A stretch of 14,507 nt of DNA, taken from positions 1 through 14,507 of the forward strand of contig JBDRBN010000005.1 in NCBI GenBank assembly GCA_043822785.1, given 5' to 3'. Position numbers and translations under genes: made by a program. The DNA comes from Pseudomonadota bacterium. GTDB taxonomy: Bacteria > UBA10199 > 2-02-FULL-44-16 > JAAZCA01. Position 1 is the stretch's first letter, and each line of letters opens with the position of its first letter. The notes under the pieces are model-generated. The model did no database searches. It was not told the DNA's origin and was given only the letters and a program-made list of their open reading frames with translations. Positions 17-14,503 of the stretch are shown piece after piece.

Positions 17-55
17 GGGAGATTGCTTCGTCGCTAAACGCTCCTCGCAATGACA
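17..55 (-). repeat. REP-like palindromic repeat arm (GTCATTGCGAG family)
   Basis: The reverse complement, TGTCATTGCGAGGAGCGTTTAGCGACGAAGCAATCTCCC, matches the element at 7111-7168 and shares its terminus with the arms at 5012-5059. Confidence 0.8.
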
Positions 56-120
56 CCTAGACATGAGAAAAATGAATTCTTATATTTCAACCAGTTAACA
101 CCTCTAACGCGACAGCAGTG

Positions 121-166
121 AGAATTTTGGATTTGTTTAGAAATTAGGATTTAGAATTTGGGATTT
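121..166 (-). repeat. Heptamer array, family A (4x7 + 11-nt spacer + 7)
   Basis: The minus strand reads AAATCCC AAATTCT AAATCCT AATTTCT AAACAAATCCA AAATTCT. Confidence 0.7.
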
Positions 167-207
167 CATAGGTAATGATTCTAACTTCTATCAATTAAGG
201 AATCTAC

Positions 208-5071: not shown

Positions 5072-6439
5072 ATGTTTAAGAAGTATAAACACATTCATTT
5101 TGTTGGCATAGGCGGCATAGGCATGAGCGGCATTGCCGAAGTGCTCATCAACCTGGGCTATCGCGTGAGCGGATCTGACGTCAAACGCGGCGAGACAACG
5201 CGCAGGCTCAAGAGGCTAGGTGCTAAGATATATTATGATCATAAGCGCTATAACATAGAGGGCTCACATGTGGTCGTGGTGTCATCTGCGGTCAAAGAGA
5301 CAAATCCAGAGGTAAAAGAAGCAAGAAAGCTTGGCATCGCAGTTGTGCCAAGGGCAGAGATGCTGGCTGAGCTCATGCGCCTAAAGTATGGAGTAGCTGT
5401 GGCTGGAACACATGGCAAGACATCCACGACATCTATCATAGGTCATCTGCTCGACTATGCTAAGTTTGATCCCACAGTCATCATCGGGGGCAAGGTAAAT
5501 AATCTAAGATCGAACGCAAGGCTTGGAAAAGGCAAATTTCTCGTTGCAGAAGCAGATGAATCTGATGGATCATTTTTAAAGCTAGCGCCGACCATCGGAG
5601 TGATAACAAACATCGATCCAGAGCACATGGAAAACTATCAAAGCTTTAACGATCTAAAGCGCGCTTTCGTGGAGTTCGCAAACAAGGTGCCGTTCTACGG
5701 TGCAGTGGTCGCATGCGCAAGCCATCCGACCGTGCGCAAAATCATTCCCTATGTTACCAGGCCCATCATCACATATGGAGATAGGGATGCCGACTACACT
5801 GCGCGCAAGATTACTCAGGATGGTGATAAGCTCAAGTTCGAAGCAGTCTACGCAGGAGAGCTTTTAGGAGAAGTATCGCTTCGCATGACCGGAGCTCACA
5901 ACGCGCTGAACGCCCTTGCAGCTATCGCTGTGGGCCGGCATCTGGACATCCCCTTTTCAACCATTAAGTCCGCACTCAAAGGATTCAAAGGCGTTGTCAG
6001 GCGTTTTCAAGTTCTGTCAAAGGTAGGACCCATCGTAGTTGATGATTATGCTCATCATCCGGTGGAAATAAAAGCTACAATAGACGCTGCGAAGTCAGGC
6101 TGGCCAACCAGGCGCATCGTGAGTGTTGTGCAGCCACATCGTTATTCAAGGCTGGCAAATCTCTTTGATGACTTTGTCACATCCGTAAAGGACGCAGATG
6201 CTGTTGTAGTGATGGATGTATATGCAGCAGGCGAGAGACCACGCAGAAATCACACAGGAGAGAGACTATGGCGAGAGATGTGCAAGAAATATCCCAAGAA
6301 GATGATTGCGTTTGCGCCGACGACACAAGAGGTTCAGTCAACGCTGGCACCATGGTGCACGAAGGAGGACTTGATCCTGTTCATGGGTGCGGGGAGCATA
6401 ACGATGACAGCGAAAATCTGCTCGAAGAGCTTGACCTGA
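5072..6439 (+). CDS. murC: UDP-N-acetylmuramate--L-alanine ligase
   Basis: HFVGIGGIGMSGIA, AGTHGKTST, EADESDGSF, DDYAHHP and QPHRYSR motifs. Confidence 0.98.
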   Translation: MFKKYKHIHFVGIGGIGMSGIAEVLINLGYRVSGSDVKRGETTRRLKRLGAKIYYDHKRYNIEGSHVVVVSSAVKETNPEVKEARKLGIAVVPRAEMLAELMRLKYGVAVAGTHGKTSTTSIIGHLLDYAKFDPTVIIGGKVNNLRSNARLGKGKFLVAEADESDGSFLKLAPTIGVITNIDPEHMENYQSFNDLKRAFVEFANKVPFYGAVVACASHPTVRKIIPYVTRPIITYGDRDADYTARKITQDGDKLKFEAVYAGELLGEVSLRMTGAHNALNALAAIAVGRHLDIPFSTIKSALKGFKGVVRRFQVLSKVGPIVVDDYAHHPVEIKATIDAAKSGWPTRRIVSVVQPHRYSRLANLFDDFVTSVKDADAVVVMDVYAAGERPRRNHTGERLWREMCKKYPKKMIAFAPTTQEVQSTLAPWCTKEDLILFMGAGSITMTAKICSKSLT

Positions 6440-7428
6440 TGGCGCTAAACCCAAGGCTGCGCGCAAAGCTTGAAAGACAACGTGAACAGGAAAAAAACAT
6501 AAGTCGCGAACAGCTCGAAGAGCTCGTGCGCCTTTTTTCCCAAGGATCTGTTTTTGTAAATGAGTCCACAGCAAATCACAGCGCAGCTCGGGTGGGTGGA
6601 GCTGTAGAAGCTTTCGTGACCACAAACGATATGGATGAGTTAAAGCGTGCTATCGCGTGGGCAAACGAGCTTTCAATTGAGTATCGCTTTTGGGGAACAG
6701 GCTCGTTTACACTCGTACGCGATGGCGGGCTTAGCGGCATCTTAATCAAACTAGGCGATGGCTTTAAGGATATAGCGGTGGAGCGCTCTTTTGAATCTGA
6801 GGTCTTTGTTTCAGCAGGAGCAGGTACAAAAGTATATGAGTTCACATCTTTCTGTAAAGCCCAGGGAATATCTGGTGCAGAACAACTTTGTGGAGCACAG
6901 GGGACCTTAGGCGGCCTGCTCTGTGCTCAAGCATCACCAGACGGAAAAACCCTCGAGGGTATGGTGGAGGAGATCACTATCATAACCCGCGAAGGACGTG
7001 AGCTCACGCTAAGGGGATCTGGGCTTCGGTTTGAAGAAGGTCGCCTTAAGATTCCGCGCACATCTTGCGTAACAAAAGCGCTCTTTAAGCTCTCGCGCGC
7101 ATGCGATTCCGTCATTGCGAGAAGCCCTTCGACGTTGCTCAGGGCAGGCTCCTGCGACGAAGCAATCCCATACGACACCCCCTGCTTCGCACTTGCATTC
7201 AAGAGCCCGTGCAAAACTTCTGCACAAATCTTGATAGACGAAGCTGGGCTTACAAGTGTGCGCGTTGGCAATGCAAGGGTATCTGCTGAAAACGCCTGCA
7301 CCATACAAAACGAAGGCGATGCCACGGCAAAGGACATAATAGTGCTCATCAGTTTAATTAAGGATCGAGTAAAACAAGCGTCGGGTATTCTGCTTGTGTC
7401 CACTATAGACATAGTAGGAAAGCGCTAA
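6439..7428 (+). CDS. murB: MurB-like protein (UDP-N-acetylenolpyruvoylglucosamine reductase fold), probably catalytically inactive
   Basis: Lies between murC and ddl with collinear remnants of MurB motifs (RVGG, GxGS-LVRDGG, AGAG, GTLGG, FKSP, LIDEAGL, GNARVS, N-G-ATAKDI). Start placed at ATG 6439 (TGATG overlap with the murC stop) rather than 6268. Key residues are substituted. Confidence 0.85.
   Translation: MALNPRLRAKLERQREQEKNISREQLEELVRLFSQGSVFVNESTANHSAARVGGAVEAFVTTNDMDELKRAIAWANELSIEYRFWGTGSFTLVRDGGLSGILIKLGDGFKDIAVERSFESEVFVSAGAGTKVYEFTSFCKAQGISGAEQLCGAQGTLGGLLCAQASPDGKTLEGMVEEITIITREGRELTLRGSGLRFEEGRLKIPRTSCVTKALFKLSRACDSVIARSPSTLLRAGSCDEAIPYDTPCFALAFKSPCKTSAQILIDEAGLTSVRVGNARVSAENACTIQNEGDATAKDIIVLISLIKDRVKQASGILLVSTIDIVGKR
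7111..7168 (+). repeat. In-frame REP-like element inside murB, containing a nested 24-bp hairpin (7125-7148)
   Basis: GTCATTGCGAGAAG[CCCTTCGACGTTGCTCAGGGCAGG]CTCCTGCGACGAAGCAATCC. The outer parts match the reverse complement of 17-55. Encodes VIARSPSTLLRAGSCDEAI. Confidence 0.85.
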
Positions 7429-7443
7429 AATAAGGAGCAGCGC

Positions 7444-8388
7444 ATGACTGGCAAATGGATGGGAAGACGAATCGCCGTACTCATGGGGGGCATCTCTAAA
7501 GAAAGAGAGATCTCCCTCAAGACCGGCAGTGCTATAACCCAGGCGCTAAAACGTCTCAATTACGATGTACACACTATTGATGTTGGAGATGGAGTGCAGC
7601 TTGTGGAGGACCTTACTAAAGTAAAACCCGACGTCGCCCTCATCGCGCTTCATGGCAAGTTTGGAGAGGACGGTTGCATACAGGGGCTTTTGGAGATGAT
7701 GAGGATACCCTACACAGGCGGTGGTGTTTTAGCCTCTGCAGTAGGTATGGATAAGATCATATGCAAGCGCGTTGCGCGCGAATTGGGCATACCATGTGTT
7801 CCTGACAGATTTTTTGAAACCAGTACAAATGATGCAGAGCATTTTGTTAAAGAATTTAAAATGGAGTTTCCTGTAATCGTTAAGCCATCTCGCGAAGGGT
7901 CCACGATCAACATGACGATTGTAAACAAACTAGATGAACTACGAGAAGCCATAAGGGTTGCCATACAATCAGACACCAAGGTGATCGTAGAGCAGTACAT
8001 CAAAGGTAAGGAAGTGACCGTCGGGCTCATAAACGGCCAGGCGCTCCCTGCACTTGAGATCGCACCGAAGAGCGGGTTCTATGACTATACGTCCAAATAC
8101 ACAAAGGGCATGACCGAATACATAGTGCCTGCTCGAATAGGCGATGCAATTGCTCTGAAGCTTAAGCGCTGGAGTGAAATCCTATGCGAAGCGATCGAAT
8201 GCGAAGGCACAGCGCGCGTGGATTTTATCGTAAGGGATGATAGCGAAGCATATTTCCTTGAAGTGAACACCATACCCGGGATGACAGAGTTGTCTTTGGT
8301 ACCAAAAGCTGCCGCACACATCGGCATCGGGTTTGACGAAGTGTGTGAAAGACTACTTGATGGAGCTAGGTTAAAGGTAAACATATAA
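7444..8388 (+). CDS. ddl: D-alanine--D-alanine ligase
   Basis: GGISKEREISL, ALHGKFGEDG, VKPSREGS, FYDYTSKY and LEVNTIPGMT motifs. TAAGGAG ribosome-binding site upstream. Confidence 0.97.
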   Translation: MTGKWMGRRIAVLMGGISKEREISLKTGSAITQALKRLNYDVHTIDVGDGVQLVEDLTKVKPDVALIALHGKFGEDGCIQGLLEMMRIPYTGGGVLASAVGMDKIICKRVARELGIPCVPDRFFETSTNDAEHFVKEFKMEFPVIVKPSREGSTINMTIVNKLDELREAIRVAIQSDTKVIVEQYIKGKEVTVGLINGQALPALEIAPKSGFYDYTSKYTKGMTEYIVPARIGDAIALKLKRWSEILCEAIECEGTARVDFIVRDDSEAYFLEVNTIPGMTELSLVPKAAAHIGIGFDEVCERLLDGARLKVNI

Positions 8389-8505
8389 AAATCCAAAATT
8401 CGAATACCTGCCGGCAGGCAGGTCGAATTTCGAATGATTTTATTTAGATATTTGAGATTTGATATTAAAAATTCCTTCGATATTCGAATTTAGATATTCG
8501 AAATT
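8389..8505. repeat. Inverted pair of family-A heptamer arrays; left arm interrupted by CCTGCCGGCAGGCAGG (8407-8422)
   Basis: Left arm AAATCCA AAATTCG AATA[16 bp]TCG AATTTCG. Right arm on the minus strand AATTTCG AATATCT AAATTCG AATATCG AAGGAATTTTT AATATCA AATCTCA AATATCT. Confidence 0.85.
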
Positions 8506-8526
8506 GTATAGAGAGATACGAAGCAT

Positions 8527-10637: not shown

Positions 10638-10670
10638 TAGAAGTTAGAAGTTAGAAGTTAGAAGTTAGAA
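10638..10670 (+). repeat. Heptamer tandem array, family C, (TAGAAGT)4 TAGAA
   Basis: Four perfect copies plus a partial one, starting 9 nt after the ftsA stop. The reverse complement TTCTAACTTCTA occurs at 179-190. Confidence 0.9.
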
Positions 10671-10711
10671 ACCGGAACATAAAATTTAAATAAAGATACA
10701 AGGAGGTTTTC

Positions 10712-12031: not shown

Positions 12032-12063
12032 CCAGTTATCAGTGACCAGTAACCAGTGATCAG
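12027..12063 (+). repeat. Heptamer array, family B, overlapping the ftsZ stop
   Basis: ATTGACC AGTTATC AGTGACC AGTAACC AGTGATC AG; same unit as 1283-1315. Confidence 0.85.
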
Positions 12064-12183
12064 CTATTGATTATTATAAATTTAATAATATCAACATGTT
12101 GTAGCTGCAGAATCTAAGCAACTTTTTAAGATTTTTTCAGATAATAATATATAGCCTTGCTGGTACTTGGTTGGATTAAACGT

Positions 12184-12189
12184 TATAAT
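12184..12189 (+). promoter_or_regulatory. Possible sigma70 -10 element for the transglycosylase gene
   Basis: Perfect TATAAT ending 43 nt before ATG 12233 in an AT-rich spacer. No convincing -35 at 17-bp spacing. Confidence 0.3.
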
Positions 12190-12232
12190 AATGATGAGGT
12201 CAGGACCATCATCACAAACGAAGGGAGATAGG

Positions 12233-14434
12233 ATGCCCCTGTTACGTTTATGCGCCACTTGGATTGTGGTCGTGTTAGTAATGTTATCTATATCGGCCTG
12301 TTCATCTAAGAAAAGGGCACGCTCTTCCTATGATAGCACGCGGTTTATAAGTGAGCACGATCTGCGCGCGCTCCCTACAAGCGATATACCCATAGTCATA
12401 AACGACCGAGTAGTCGCCTGGATTGAATATTTCCACGGCCCAGGAAGGCGCCATTTTGTACGCTATCTGGAAAGAAGCGCGCGCTATCTTCCGCTCATGA
12501 AAGCTATTCTGCAAGAGCAAGGCATGCCTACCGATCTTGTGTACATCGCCCTCATCGAGAGCGGGTTTAACAACCACGCCTACTCAAGAGCAGCAGCTGT
12601 GGGACCCTGGCAGTTCATACGTTCAACTGGCAAGATATACGGCCTTGAGGTGAACGAATGGGTTGATGAGCGCCGTGATCCAGTAAGAGCAACATATGCT
12701 GCAGCCAGAATGTTTCGTGATCTGTACCAAGATTATGGCGACTGGTATCTGGCAATGGTAGGTTACAATGCAGGGCCTGGCCGAGTAGCCAAAGCTATGG
12801 AAATAACCGGCAGCCGCGATTTCTGGGTTATGGCTGAGGACAGAACAGCGCTGAAACCCGAAACCCGCGATTATGTTCCAAAGTTCATAGCTGCCATGAT
12901 AATGGCAAGGCAGCCCGAAAAGTTCGGCTTCAGGAATCTAAACTTTCATGAACCCTGGGAGCACGAAAGCGCTGCAGTAGAAACCCAAACCGACATCTCT
13001 GTTATAGCAAAATGTGCAGGAGTTGCAGAGCACGAGGTGCTTGATCTCAATCCTCATTTAATAAGGGGTGCCACACCGCCCAATCATAATAACTACAAAG
13101 TGCGCCTGCCAAAAGGCACATCACAAAAATTCTTGCTCGCTTACGCCAATGTTCCAAAAGAAGAGCGTATCCAAATCGTGCGCCACAATGTAAGGCACGG
13201 CGATACCATGTACAAGATTGCCAAGCGCTATGGAATCAGCGTTCAGGCATTGGCCCAGGCAAACGGCCTTAGCAGAAAGAGCAAACTGCACCGAGGAAAA
13301 ACTCTCGTAATTCCTGTCGGTGCATCTGCAGCTCGCTTCGCAAAGGCATATGACGAACCAAGCAGTGAAGGACAGCATTCAAAACTCATTCGCTATAATG
13401 TAAAAAAGGGCGATACGCTGGGTGCGATTGCTGCCAAATTTCCAGGTGTAACCGTATCAAAGCTTAAAAGTTGGAATCACCTTGGTCGACACTCACACAT
13501 CAGAACAGGACAGAAGCTAAAGATCTATACAAAGGCAGCATATGCTAGCAGCTCTATAAGCGAAAAACCAGAATCTCATACGGTAAAGCACGGTGAAACC
13601 CTTGGAGGTATTGCTGCACGCTATGGCACTACGGCAAAGAAGCTCATGGCATTAAACAGCATAAATAATCCAAAGCACCTTCGCTCTGGCATGAAGCTCA
13701 AGGTGCAATCATCGGGCAATACTACAACAGCCATCGCACTTGAAGATGCAAAAGCCCCAACTGGTAGCGGAGTAACAAAGATTGCAAAAGTAGAATCAGA
13801 AACCACAAGCACGCATCGAGTGCGCAAGGGCGAAACCTTGGGCACGATCGCAGCCAAGTACGGTGTGAGCACAAAGCAGCTCATGTCATGGAATGGAATA
13901 AAAAACCCCAAGTACGTGCGTGCAGGTCAAAATCTAAAGGTGAGATCAAACACAAAAACCACATCCTCGACCGAGACCACAGCCATAGCTCTTGATGACA
14001 CATCTTCAGGTTCCACGACCAGCACAAATGCTTCAGGACATACTCATCATGTGCGCAAAGGCGAAACCTTGGGCACGATCGCAGCCAAGTACGGTGTGAG
14101 CACAAAGCAGCTCATGTCATGGAATGACATCAAAAATCCTCGCATGGTAAAAGCAGGGCAGAAGTTAGTAATTAAGAAATCTACCAAGTCAAAAGTTGAT
14201 ATTGAAAGTGCTCCATCGATTAAACCAGTTCCAAACAATACACCGATAAAGATTTCCGTTCCAAACACCACAGTACAGAACAAAACAATAACTCATCGCG
14301 TGTCCGCAGGCGAGACCCTGTGGGATATTGCAAGAAAACACAGCGTCACCATTGCCCAGCTTCAGAAATGGAACAATCTGAACGATCCATCCTCAGTTCG
14401 ATTAGGCACAACGCTGAAGATCTTTAAGAACTAA
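12233..14434 (+). CDS. Lipoprotein lytic murein transglycosylase, MltD-like (SLT domain + six LysM domains)
   Basis: AAGGGAG site before ATG 12233; signal peptide with ISAC lipobox; SLT motifs IESGF, GPWQFI, GYNAG and ETRDYV; six V--G(D/E)T(L/M)--IA LysM repeats. Confidence 0.92.
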   Translation: MPLLRLCATWIVVVLVMLSISACSSKKRARSSYDSTRFISEHDLRALPTSDIPIVINDRVVAWIEYFHGPGRRHFVRYLERSARYLPLMKAILQEQGMPTDLVYIALIESGFNNHAYSRAAAVGPWQFIRSTGKIYGLEVNEWVDERRDPVRATYAAARMFRDLYQDYGDWYLAMVGYNAGPGRVAKAMEITGSRDFWVMAEDRTALKPETRDYVPKFIAAMIMARQPEKFGFRNLNFHEPWEHESAAVETQTDISVIAKCAGVAEHEVLDLNPHLIRGATPPNHNNYKVRLPKGTSQKFLLAYANVPKEERIQIVRHNVRHGDTMYKIAKRYGISVQALAQANGLSRKSKLHRGKTLVIPVGASAARFAKAYDEPSSEGQHSKLIRYNVKKGDTLGAIAAKFPGVTVSKLKSWNHLGRHSHIRTGQKLKIYTKAAYASSSISEKPESHTVKHGETLGGIAARYGTTAKKLMALNSINNPKHLRSGMKLKVQSSGNTTTAIALEDAKAPTGSGVTKIAKVESETTSTHRVRKGETLGTIAAKYGVSTKQLMSWNGIKNPKYVRAGQNLKVRSNTKTTSSTETTAIALDDTSSGSTTSTNASGHTHHVRKGETLGTIAAKYGVSTKQLMSWNDIKNPRMVKAGQKLVIKKSTKSKVDIESAPSIKPVPNNTPIKISVPNTTVQNKTITHRVSAGETLWDIARKHSVTIAQLQKWNNLNDPSSVRLGTTLKIFKN
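13820..14126 (+). repeat. Direct repeat in LysM4/LysM5 (13820-13895 and 14051-14126)
   Basis: Two 76-bp copies, 231 bp apart, differing at one synonymous position (AAG/AAA). Confidence 0.9.
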
Positions 14435-14443
14435 CCTAAAACC

Positions 14444-14503
14444 AAATCCAAAATCCGAATATCGAAATTCGAAGGAATATTTAATGCTGAATATCCAATA
14501 TCA
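14444..14503 (+). repeat. Heptamer array, family A left arm (probably continues beyond the window)
   Basis: AAATCCA AAATCCG AATATCG AAATTCG AAGGAATATTT AATGCTG AATATCC AATATCA. Confidence 0.85.

What the first reader, a model, noticed from the sequence alone, without database searches (positions are those of the whole stretch)
7111..7170. Palindromic DNA repeat translated in frame, replacing a MurB helix
Seen: codons VIARSPSTLLRAGSCDEAIP derive from the same repeat found intergenically at 17-55. They sit where MurB normally has the helix ending R---QP, just before the catalytic-Ser loop. The segment is close to the usual length, so this looks like replacement rather than pure insertion (inference). 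It is analogous to Rickettsia palindromic elements inserted in coding genes (established), and suggests relaxed constraint on this part of the protein.
Basis: partly seen in the sequence, partly recalled or inferred. Interest (0 to 1): 0.75.

Follow-up and report, generated by a model that had tools for sequence, protein, structure and literature searches.

The report
Hairpin repeat inside dead MurB copy
A 57-base copy of this uncultured bacterium's most abundant hairpin-type DNA repeat sits in frame inside a copy of the cell-wall gene murB that has lost its catalytic residues, while an intact murB elsewhere in the genome likely does the chemistry, so the insertion is real but likely a tolerated passenger of a kind already known from Rickettsia and other bacteria.

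Summary
Window 7111-7167 is one 57-bp arm of a TGTC/CGTC-tagged repeat (417 strict copies in the genome), read in frame as 19 residues. Contigs from two studies bridge both junctions. The interpretation needs correcting: the host is not a working MurB. It lacks the catalytic Arg, Ser/Cys and Glu, as does its whole clade, and an intact second murB lies on another contig. The closest orthologue has no repeat, a 22-residue loop (35 here, 33 canonical) and no predicted helix. So the helix was probably decaying first, and the repeat came with loss of at least 6 codons. The same repeat sits in frame in seven other ORFs, among them TruA and QueG, whose same loops hold other repeat families in related genera. 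Small GIY-YIG (Ssn-like) genes flanked by this repeat are the likely copying agents. In-frame palindromes are known (Rickettsia RPE; CGTC REPs, one listed in R. conorii MurB). More interesting is the host: the dead MurB is under purifying selection and likely starts 172 nt inside murC. The scan noted dead dcw MurBs and repeat-filled TruA/QueG loops before, on other DNA.

The parts
7111..7167 (+). Single arm of the TGTC/CGTC-tagged repeat, 57 bp, read in frame as 19 residues (residues 282-300 of the 386-aa product)
   Evidence: bridged by contigs
7125..7144 (+). Core of an inner cassette from a second hairpin family nested in the arm (62 loose matches in the genome, many outside arms)
   Evidence: the same hairpin type lies beside other small GIY-YIG genes
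6268..7428 (+). murB-like gene of the dcw cluster, MurB fold, catalytic residues lost; 386 aa from the likely start at 6268 (329 aa from the ATG at 6439)
6268..6439 (+). 172-nt overlap of the murB-like frame with the 3' end of murC; would encode an acidic 57-residue extension (16 D/E, 2 K/R)
7039..7041 (+). Gly codon at the place of S. aureus MurB Arg188
7192..7194 (+). Leu codon at the place of the proton-donor Ser238 (Cys in intact relatives)
7402..7404 (+). Thr codon at the place of Glu308
5072..6439 (+). murC, intact (TIGR01082 538 bits, cut-off 335)
7444..8388 (+). ddl, intact (TIGR01205 324 bits, cut-off 246)
21..54 (-). Intergenic arm of the same family, a different and recently expanded subtype, at the contig end
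5012..5059 (.). Near-perfect hairpin between murG and murC whose arms begin with the repeat's 5' end
   Evidence: z -10.7

Best explanation
A single 57-bp arm of the genome's dominant hairpin repeat sits in frame in a length-variable loop of a murB copy that lacks its catalytic residues, and it likely persists as a neutral passenger because an intact second murB likely supplies the activity. Order of events: (1) the family acquired a second murB (shown: present in 11 of 13 family genomes); (2) the dcw copy lost Arg, Ser/Cys and Glu in one clade (shown by alignment and tree; loss of activity inferred) but stayed under purifying selection (shown in two sister pairs); (3) the substrate-side helix shortened repeatedly (shown as length drift; loss of helix predicted); (4) the repeat expanded in this genome and one arm entered the loop with loss of 6 to 15 host codons (shown: at least 6); (5) only the frame-keeping 57-bp form survived, where its nearest siblings are 56 bp (inferred). 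Copying is most likely started by small Ssn-like GIY-YIG nucleases that nick the single-stranded hairpin, followed by repair (inferred from gene flanking; untested).
For: Siblings 54/57 identical and intergenic. No repeat-derived peptide in this loop in 93 homologues: a crude motif scan hit 6 others, by 3-4 residue matches inside ordinary loops, and DNA of 20 relatives' loops shows no arm. Catalytic positions F/G/L/N/T against N83/R188/S238/H271/E308; roles of Ser or Cys, Glu and Arg from passages of PMC3689657. TIGR00179 98 bits (cut-off 144.5) against 207 for the second copy, which keeps all motifs. Loop 32-35 residues in 58 of 58 intact homologues, under 32 in 27 of 30 lacking both Arg and Glu. 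All 32 rows without Glu form one clade (96/90) inside the Cys-type enzymes; query and P0002 are sisters (100/99). Models: core pLDDT above 90, insert 49-67; sister has no helix there. dN/dS 0.17 and 0.33 in two same-genus pairs. Arms avoid genes: 15 genuine arms in 8 ORF interiors, about 310 expected. GIY-YIG genes flanked on both sides: 2 of 9 in this genome, 0 of 9 Y1 transposases, background 0.4%; 4 of 21 homologous loci in the order, all in the three most repeat-rich genomes.
Against: Two family genomes (G002, 99% complete; G006, 95%) and G015 show only the degenerate copy, so redundancy is not shown everywhere. The same repeat also sits in single-copy, apparently intact TruA and QueG, so a dead host is not required for tolerance. 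No DNA of the sister P0002 and no empty-site allele was obtained, so the pre-insertion state is inferred from proteins. dS is saturated for every pair that includes this genome, so selection on this very copy is not measured. No expression data. Six genomes with 17-29 arms have no match to the flanked nuclease, and 0 of 499 arms fit the published SRM pattern.
Confidence: 0.8

Rival explanations
1. The repeat replaced the helix of a working MurB, and the enzyme functions with the new segment.
For: Position over the helix and near-canonical loop length, 35 against 33; fold intact, TM about 0.8 to solved MurBs; low-confidence short helices predicted in the insert; three genomes of the order have no other detected murB.
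Against: Arg, Ser/Cys, His, Glu and the flavin-site Asn are all replaced here and across the clade; an intact paralogue exists in this genome; the sister lacks the helix without any repeat.
Confidence: 0.05
2. The gene is a pseudogene in this lineage, no longer made or needed, and the frame is open by luck or only for polarity on ddl-ftsQAZ.
For: The extra base relative to both siblings could be a later frame repair after a tolerated frameshift; the gene evolves two to three times faster than murC and ddl; selection on this branch cannot be measured.
Against: No stop or frameshift in 386 codons; 70% identity to the sister with short end branches; open in all 12 family loci read; start codon kept inside murC.
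Confidence: 0.1
3. The insertion was selected, as a new binding surface for the pseudoenzyme or as an RNA or DNA signal inside the dcw operon.
For: Identical or nearly identical in contigs of two studies; loops of TruA and QueG are refilled by repeats in several genera.
Against: Found in one lineage only; still 54/57 identical to intergenic copies; no stable fold; low model confidence; the refilled loops carry unrelated sequences and frames, and some relatives carry none.
Confidence: 0.04
4. Assembly artefact that joined a repeat into the gene.
For: The genome is fragmented at these repeats: one subtype lies within 160 nt of an end in 58 of 148 contigs.
Against: Three independently assembled contigs from two studies bridge both junctions with 0-1 differences; the arm differs from every other copy; the frame is kept.
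Confidence: 0.01

Closest known systems
CGTC-tagged REP superfamily, intragenic copies (Di Nocera et al. 2013, PMC3733652; read: abstract, passages, section 6, supplement 3 part 2 and a term search)
   Same: Terminal TGTC/CGTC tag, stem opening with AT, mostly extragenic inverted dimers with tags outermost, a minority in frame in genes. The supplement lists a CGTC-1 dimer in R. conorii MurB (RC0332, residues 19-56) and REPs in pseudouridine synthases.
   Different: Stem is 5 bp plus an internal loop and a variable inner hairpin, not 8-9 bp with a 4-5 nt loop; the arm is a nested chimera of two hairpin families; the site is internal (domain III), and the host is catalytically degenerate.
Rickettsia palindromic elements (RPE; seen through passages of PMC10969869 and PMC1779305; the original papers were not readable)
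   Same: Lineage-specific repeat expansion with in-frame copies in unrelated housekeeping genes.
   Different: RPEs are 100-150 bp and up to about half of some families are intragenic; here arms are 25-72 bp and about 3% lie in gene interiors. Likeness of this sequence to RPE-7 is recalled and was not tested.
Ssn nucleases and Ssn-related motifs (Chenal et al. 2025, PMC11893778; read: abstract, passages, Discussion)
   Same: About 97-aa single-domain GIY-YIG genes flanked on both sides by tagged hairpins that occur in hundreds of copies.
   Different: 0 of 499 arms match the published degenerate SRM pattern; cleavage untested; the paper proposes but does not show that Ssn spreads its repeats.
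Type II MurB (S. aureus 1HSK, Listeria 3TX1, 4PYT; Cys-type IIb)
   Same: Fold (Foldseek E about 1e-27, TM about 0.8), Pfam PF01565 plus PF02873, place between murC and ddl.
   Different: Catalytic and flavin-site residues lost, R---QP helix decayed, likely long acidic N-terminal extension encoded inside murC.

Membership tests
CGTC-tagged REPs | Terminal CGTC (or TGTC/CCTC) tag | tested here: met
   TGTC in 355 and CGTC in 5 of 374 distinct arms; the murB arm has CGTC
CGTC-tagged REPs | 8-9 bp stem with 4-5 nt loop (families 1-4) | tested here: not met
   Folds give a 5-bp outer stem, internal loop and small inner stem; arm length 25-72. Figure 2 of the paper could not be seen.
CGTC-tagged REPs | Short tail, mostly CCA | tested here: inconclusive
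   After the stem: TCC 218, CCC 102, CCA 23 of 374; the murB arm has CCA, which may be host sequence
CGTC-tagged REPs | Mostly extragenic, often inverted dimers | tested here: met
   406 of 499 arms paired; 15 genuine arms in ORF interiors
RPE | Sequence membership of an RPE family | tested here: inconclusive
   No RPE model was among NCBIfam hits for the murB, TruA or QueG proteins; short peptides can be missed; no DNA comparison with Rickettsia was made
RPE | In-frame copies in several unrelated genes | tested here: met
   8 ORFs including TruA, QueG, a kinase, an RHS protein and an S8 protease
Ssn/SRM | Repeat matches the SRM consensus | tested here: not met
   0 of 499 arms
Ssn/SRM | Small GIY-YIG gene flanked by the repeat on both sides | tested here: met
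   Two 97-aa PF01541 genes here, one each in G013 and G015
Ssn/SRM | Nuclease in CDD family cd10448 | not testable with these tools
   No CDD library
Ssn/SRM | Sequence-specific ssDNA cleavage | not testable with these tools
   Needs a bench assay
RAYT/REPtron | Y1 transposase gene flanked by the repeat | tested here: not met
   0 of 9 PF01797 hits have an arm within 500 bp
Active type II MurB | MurB fold and domains | tested here: met
Active type II MurB | Catalytic Arg, Ser/Cys and Glu | tested here: not met
   Gly, Leu, Thr; below the TIGR00179 cut-off
Active type II MurB | FAD binding and reductase activity | not testable with these tools
   Needs purified protein

The most novel reading that the evidence does not exclude
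The dcw murB of this uncultured family is a true pseudoenzyme: a MurB fold kept for a non-catalytic job in the Mur pathway, made from a start codon 172 nt inside murC that gives it an acidic tail and couples its synthesis to MurC. The repeat is a natural linker-scanning mutation that marks the substrate-side helix as dispensable for that job. The repeats themselves are spread by Ssn-like nucleases, each with its own hairpin, which refill the same few permissive loops with whichever family is expanding in a genome.
Probability: 0.35. Interest if true: 0.65.

Novelty: new member of a known kind. Interest (0 to 1): 0.35.

Why it matters
The insertion alone is another case of a translated palindromic repeat and should score modestly. 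It matters as a marker. It exposes a MurB that a bacterial family keeps without catalytic residues, which would give a testable handle on the old idea that Mur enzymes also have structural roles in a complex (discussed in passages of PMC10214165, which also reports MurC-MurB fusions). And it ties a repeat family, its likely nuclease and recurrent target loops together in one clade, which makes the unknown copying mechanism of CGTC-type repeats testable in vitro.

Tried and rejected
Decayed second arm: bases 7183-7200 resemble the partner arm (3 loose matches outside arms genome-wide, motif chosen after the fact), but the sister and other homologues have the same residues, so they are host sequence; a role as target microhomology stays untested. 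Programmed frameshift making a MurC-MurB fusion: no conserved slippery site; replaced by the upstream start. RAYT mobiliser: 0 of 9 flanked. RNA family: 0 Rfam matches in the window. Close DNA relatives: metagenome scans gave none and one locus at 57%; the family search found nothing closer than 52%; a genome-collection scan for this composite arm gave 0. No RNA holder listed. No joint skipping the element in six runs, but only three cover the site. MurC with the dead MurB in complex prediction: no verdict, score 0.00, controls not folded. First dN/dS run included overlapping murC codons and was discarded (redone in 84). The quick tree was superseded. The Ogata 2002 paper was not held. Searches for print on dead MurB paralogues and on recurrent TruA insertions returned 0 papers in the open library; a search for E. 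coli numbering also returned 0. Parts 1 and 3 of the Di Nocera supplement were only term-searched, and the Ssn supplements were not opened; they may list this repeat type.

Full report
Setting. The window is contig C5 of a 2.3-Mb, 148-contig, 87% complete genome. It holds a dcw cluster; murC, a murB-like gene and ddl were identified by profile, the other gene names rest on my reading of the translations.

The element. Bases 7111-7167 are one arm of a repeat with fixed ends and a variable middle. A strict pattern finds 417 arms in this genome and 0 for the reversed control; the other 21 genomes of the order have 123, 56 and then 0-29. A loose pattern finds 499, of which 406 form inverted pairs, mostly 14-15 or 23-24 nt apart. 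The tag is TGTC in 355 of 374 distinct arms. The murB arm is unpaired and carries an inner cassette from a second hairpin family. It shares only its 11 first and 14 last bases with the copy at 21-54, but is 54 of 57 identical to two paired intergenic arms that are each one base shorter. That extra base makes 19 whole codons. The arm alone is not a strong palindrome (z 0.40). Contigs of X1 and X2 (one sample) and X5 (another study) bridge both junctions with 0, 1 and 0 differences; X3, X4 and X6 do not cover the site.

The host is a degenerate MurB. The predicted structure is a MurB (mean pLDDT 93; Foldseek E 3e-27 to 1HSK). But aligned with S. aureus MurB, Asn83, Arg188, Ser238, His271 and Glu308 read Phe, Gly, Leu, Asn and Thr. 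Passages of PMC3689657 name Ser (or Cys in type IIb) as proton donor and the conserved Glu and Arg as substrate and flavin contacts; the S. aureus numbers come from the alignment and a docking table. The protein scores 98 bits on TIGR00179 (cut-off 144.5), while a second murB on contig C91 scores 207 and keeps every motif. In the family, 10 of 13 genomes have two MurB matches; G011 (78% complete) shows only the second type, and G002 and G006 only the dcw type; the second copy of G008 is interrupted by a stretch of unread bases. Of 12 family dcw copies read, 2 are intact. In a tree of 56 of the 94 aligned homologues with the loop removed (the top 50 rows plus 6 outgroups), all 32 rows lacking the Glu form one clade (96/90) nested among Cys-type enzymes, and the query is sister to P0002 (100/99) (long branches could inflate this). 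The dead copy remains constrained: dN/dS 0.17 and 0.33 in two same-genus pairs, against 0.06/0.12 for murC, 0.08/0.18 for ddl and 0.13/0.22 for the second murB; an intact dcw pair from two genera gives 0.22. Against simple redundancy: G002, G006 and G015 show no intact murB, and G015 also no murA.

What the repeat replaced. The segment between the last strand and the FxxP motif is 32-35 residues in 58 of 58 intact homologues, but under 32 in 27 of 30 lacking both Arg and Glu (6 rows intermediate). The query has 35, of which 16 are host. P0002 (70% identical, no repeat) has 22, with both flanks alignable and 6 residues where the query has 19. Most of the next clade has 29-31. So 6 to 15 host codons were lost, at or around the insertion. 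The P0002 model has no helix in this loop; the query model has short helices at low confidence (pLDDT blocks 67 and 49).

Other coding copies. 18 of 499 arms lie more than 50 codons from the ends of ORFs of 150 aa or more; I dropped 3 as chance matches of the loose pattern, leaving 15 arms in 8 ORFs, where about 310 would be expected from the 62% of the genome that is such interior. Hosts: this gene, TruA, QueG, a Ser/Thr kinase, an RHS protein (5 arms), an S8 protease and two unknowns. TruA and QueG are single-copy. I compared three candidates with 5 relatives each. The same TruA loop holds an unrelated purine-rich hairpin repeat in 2 of 4 readable orthologues, a small hairpin in one and a short loop in one; the same QueG loop holds that repeat in 3 of 5, a tandem-like hairpin in one and nothing in one. 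That other repeat has 56-132 matches per strand in exactly those three genomes and 0 in the other two. The third candidate, an M23 peptidase, was inconclusive. So each genome fills the same loops with its own dominant repeat, which argues for tolerance rather than function of any one peptide.

Likely copying agent. An earlier scan note pointed to Ssn nucleases. Of 9 GIY-YIG hits in this genome, two 97-aa genes have arms on both sides; 0 of 9 Y1 transposases have any; random intervals do in 0.4% of cases. Among 21 homologous loci in the order, 4 are flanked on both sides by this arm: the two here and one each in G015 and G013, the next most repeat-rich genomes; many others are flanked by different tagged hairpins. 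This fits the Ssn architecture of PMC11893778, though no arm matches its SRM pattern and six genomes with 17-29 arms lack a match. No target duplication is visible at the murB junctions. The mechanism, nicking of the single-stranded hairpin and repair with a small deletion, is inference.

The gene start. The murB frame stays open 57 codons into murC. At one murC Leu-Trp (or Leu-Cys) site the Leu codon ends in A, creating ATG after a purine-rich stretch, in 16 of 16 aligned loci of this family, one neighbouring family and one metagenome contig, and in 0 of 12 others; other murC Leu codons end in A in 38 of 537 cases (G015 did not align; two further loci were left out). After that ATG there are 0 stops in 800 codons against 22.5 expected; controls have 29 in 587 against 24.1. 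Kin are not independent, but GC-rich genomes keep the rare codon. The overlap also occurs with intact MurBs, so it predates loss of catalysis. It supports translation of the dead gene.

Comparison and verdict. In-frame tagged palindromes are described: PMC3733652 lists many, including one in R. conorii MurB near its N-terminus, and RPEs are reviewed in PMC10969869 and PMC1779305. The repeat works like a CGTC-type REP and an Ssn motif but fails the stem and consensus tests, so I do not file it in those families. Three open-library searches found no paper on dead MurB paralogues or recurrent TruA insertions, but unchecked scan notes report both on other DNA. Verdict: real, a new member of a known kind, interest 0.35, most of it owed to the pseudoenzyme host.

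Noticed in passing
window 6268-6439; loci L004-L012, L015-L018, L026, L048: Conserved 172-nt dual-coding overlap: murB starts inside murC through a forced CTA/TTA Leu codon, giving an acidic N-terminal extension in two families, in dead and intact MurBs alike.
   Followed up: yes
L055:154-990 (TruA), L053:617-1423 (QueG); relatives L065-L068, L071-L075: The same loops hold different hairpin repeat families in different genera, matching each genome's dominant repeat.
   Followed up: partly
G002, G006, G015 (L026, L011, L019): Genomes 95-99% complete with only a degenerate murB found; G015 also without a murA match. They may lack the gene in the assembly or make UDP-MurNAc another way.
   Followed up: partly
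L044:1486-2376 and L036-L047: The stand-alone intact murB forms a distinct type with a KHPD motif where QP usually stands, shared across the family; its origin was not traced.
   Followed up: partly
L049 (G000 C26:26900-36700): Two small GIY-YIG genes bracket a 2190-aa RHS gene that itself carries 5 in-frame arms; a kinase next to it carries a dimer, and a Y1 transposase hit follows.
   Followed up: partly
L122-L128: Related hairpin families also lie inside ORFs: an AddB-like nuclease, GlnE, a DNA methylase, a spermidine-synthase-domain protein, a radical SAM methylthiotransferase-like protein and XseA. Not checked against orthologues.
   Followed up: partly
window 18-66 and 58 contig ends: One subtype occurs as 67 identical 49-nt copies and lies near an end of 58 of 148 contigs: a very recent expansion that breaks the assembly.
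   Followed up: no
window 120-170, 1283-1364, 8384-8510, 10638-10672, 12033-12072, 14431-14502: Several gene junctions of the dcw cluster hold other short-period inverted or tandem repeats, some pairing across the window.
   Followed up: no
window 7183-7200: Host codons just downstream resemble the partner arm and could pair with the inserted arm; ancestral by protein comparison, possible target microhomology.
   Followed up: partly
window 12167-14434: Lytic transglycosylase-like ORF with many LysM-like repeats, including a 98-nt duplication at 92% identity (domain names from my reading, not from a profile search).
   Followed up: no
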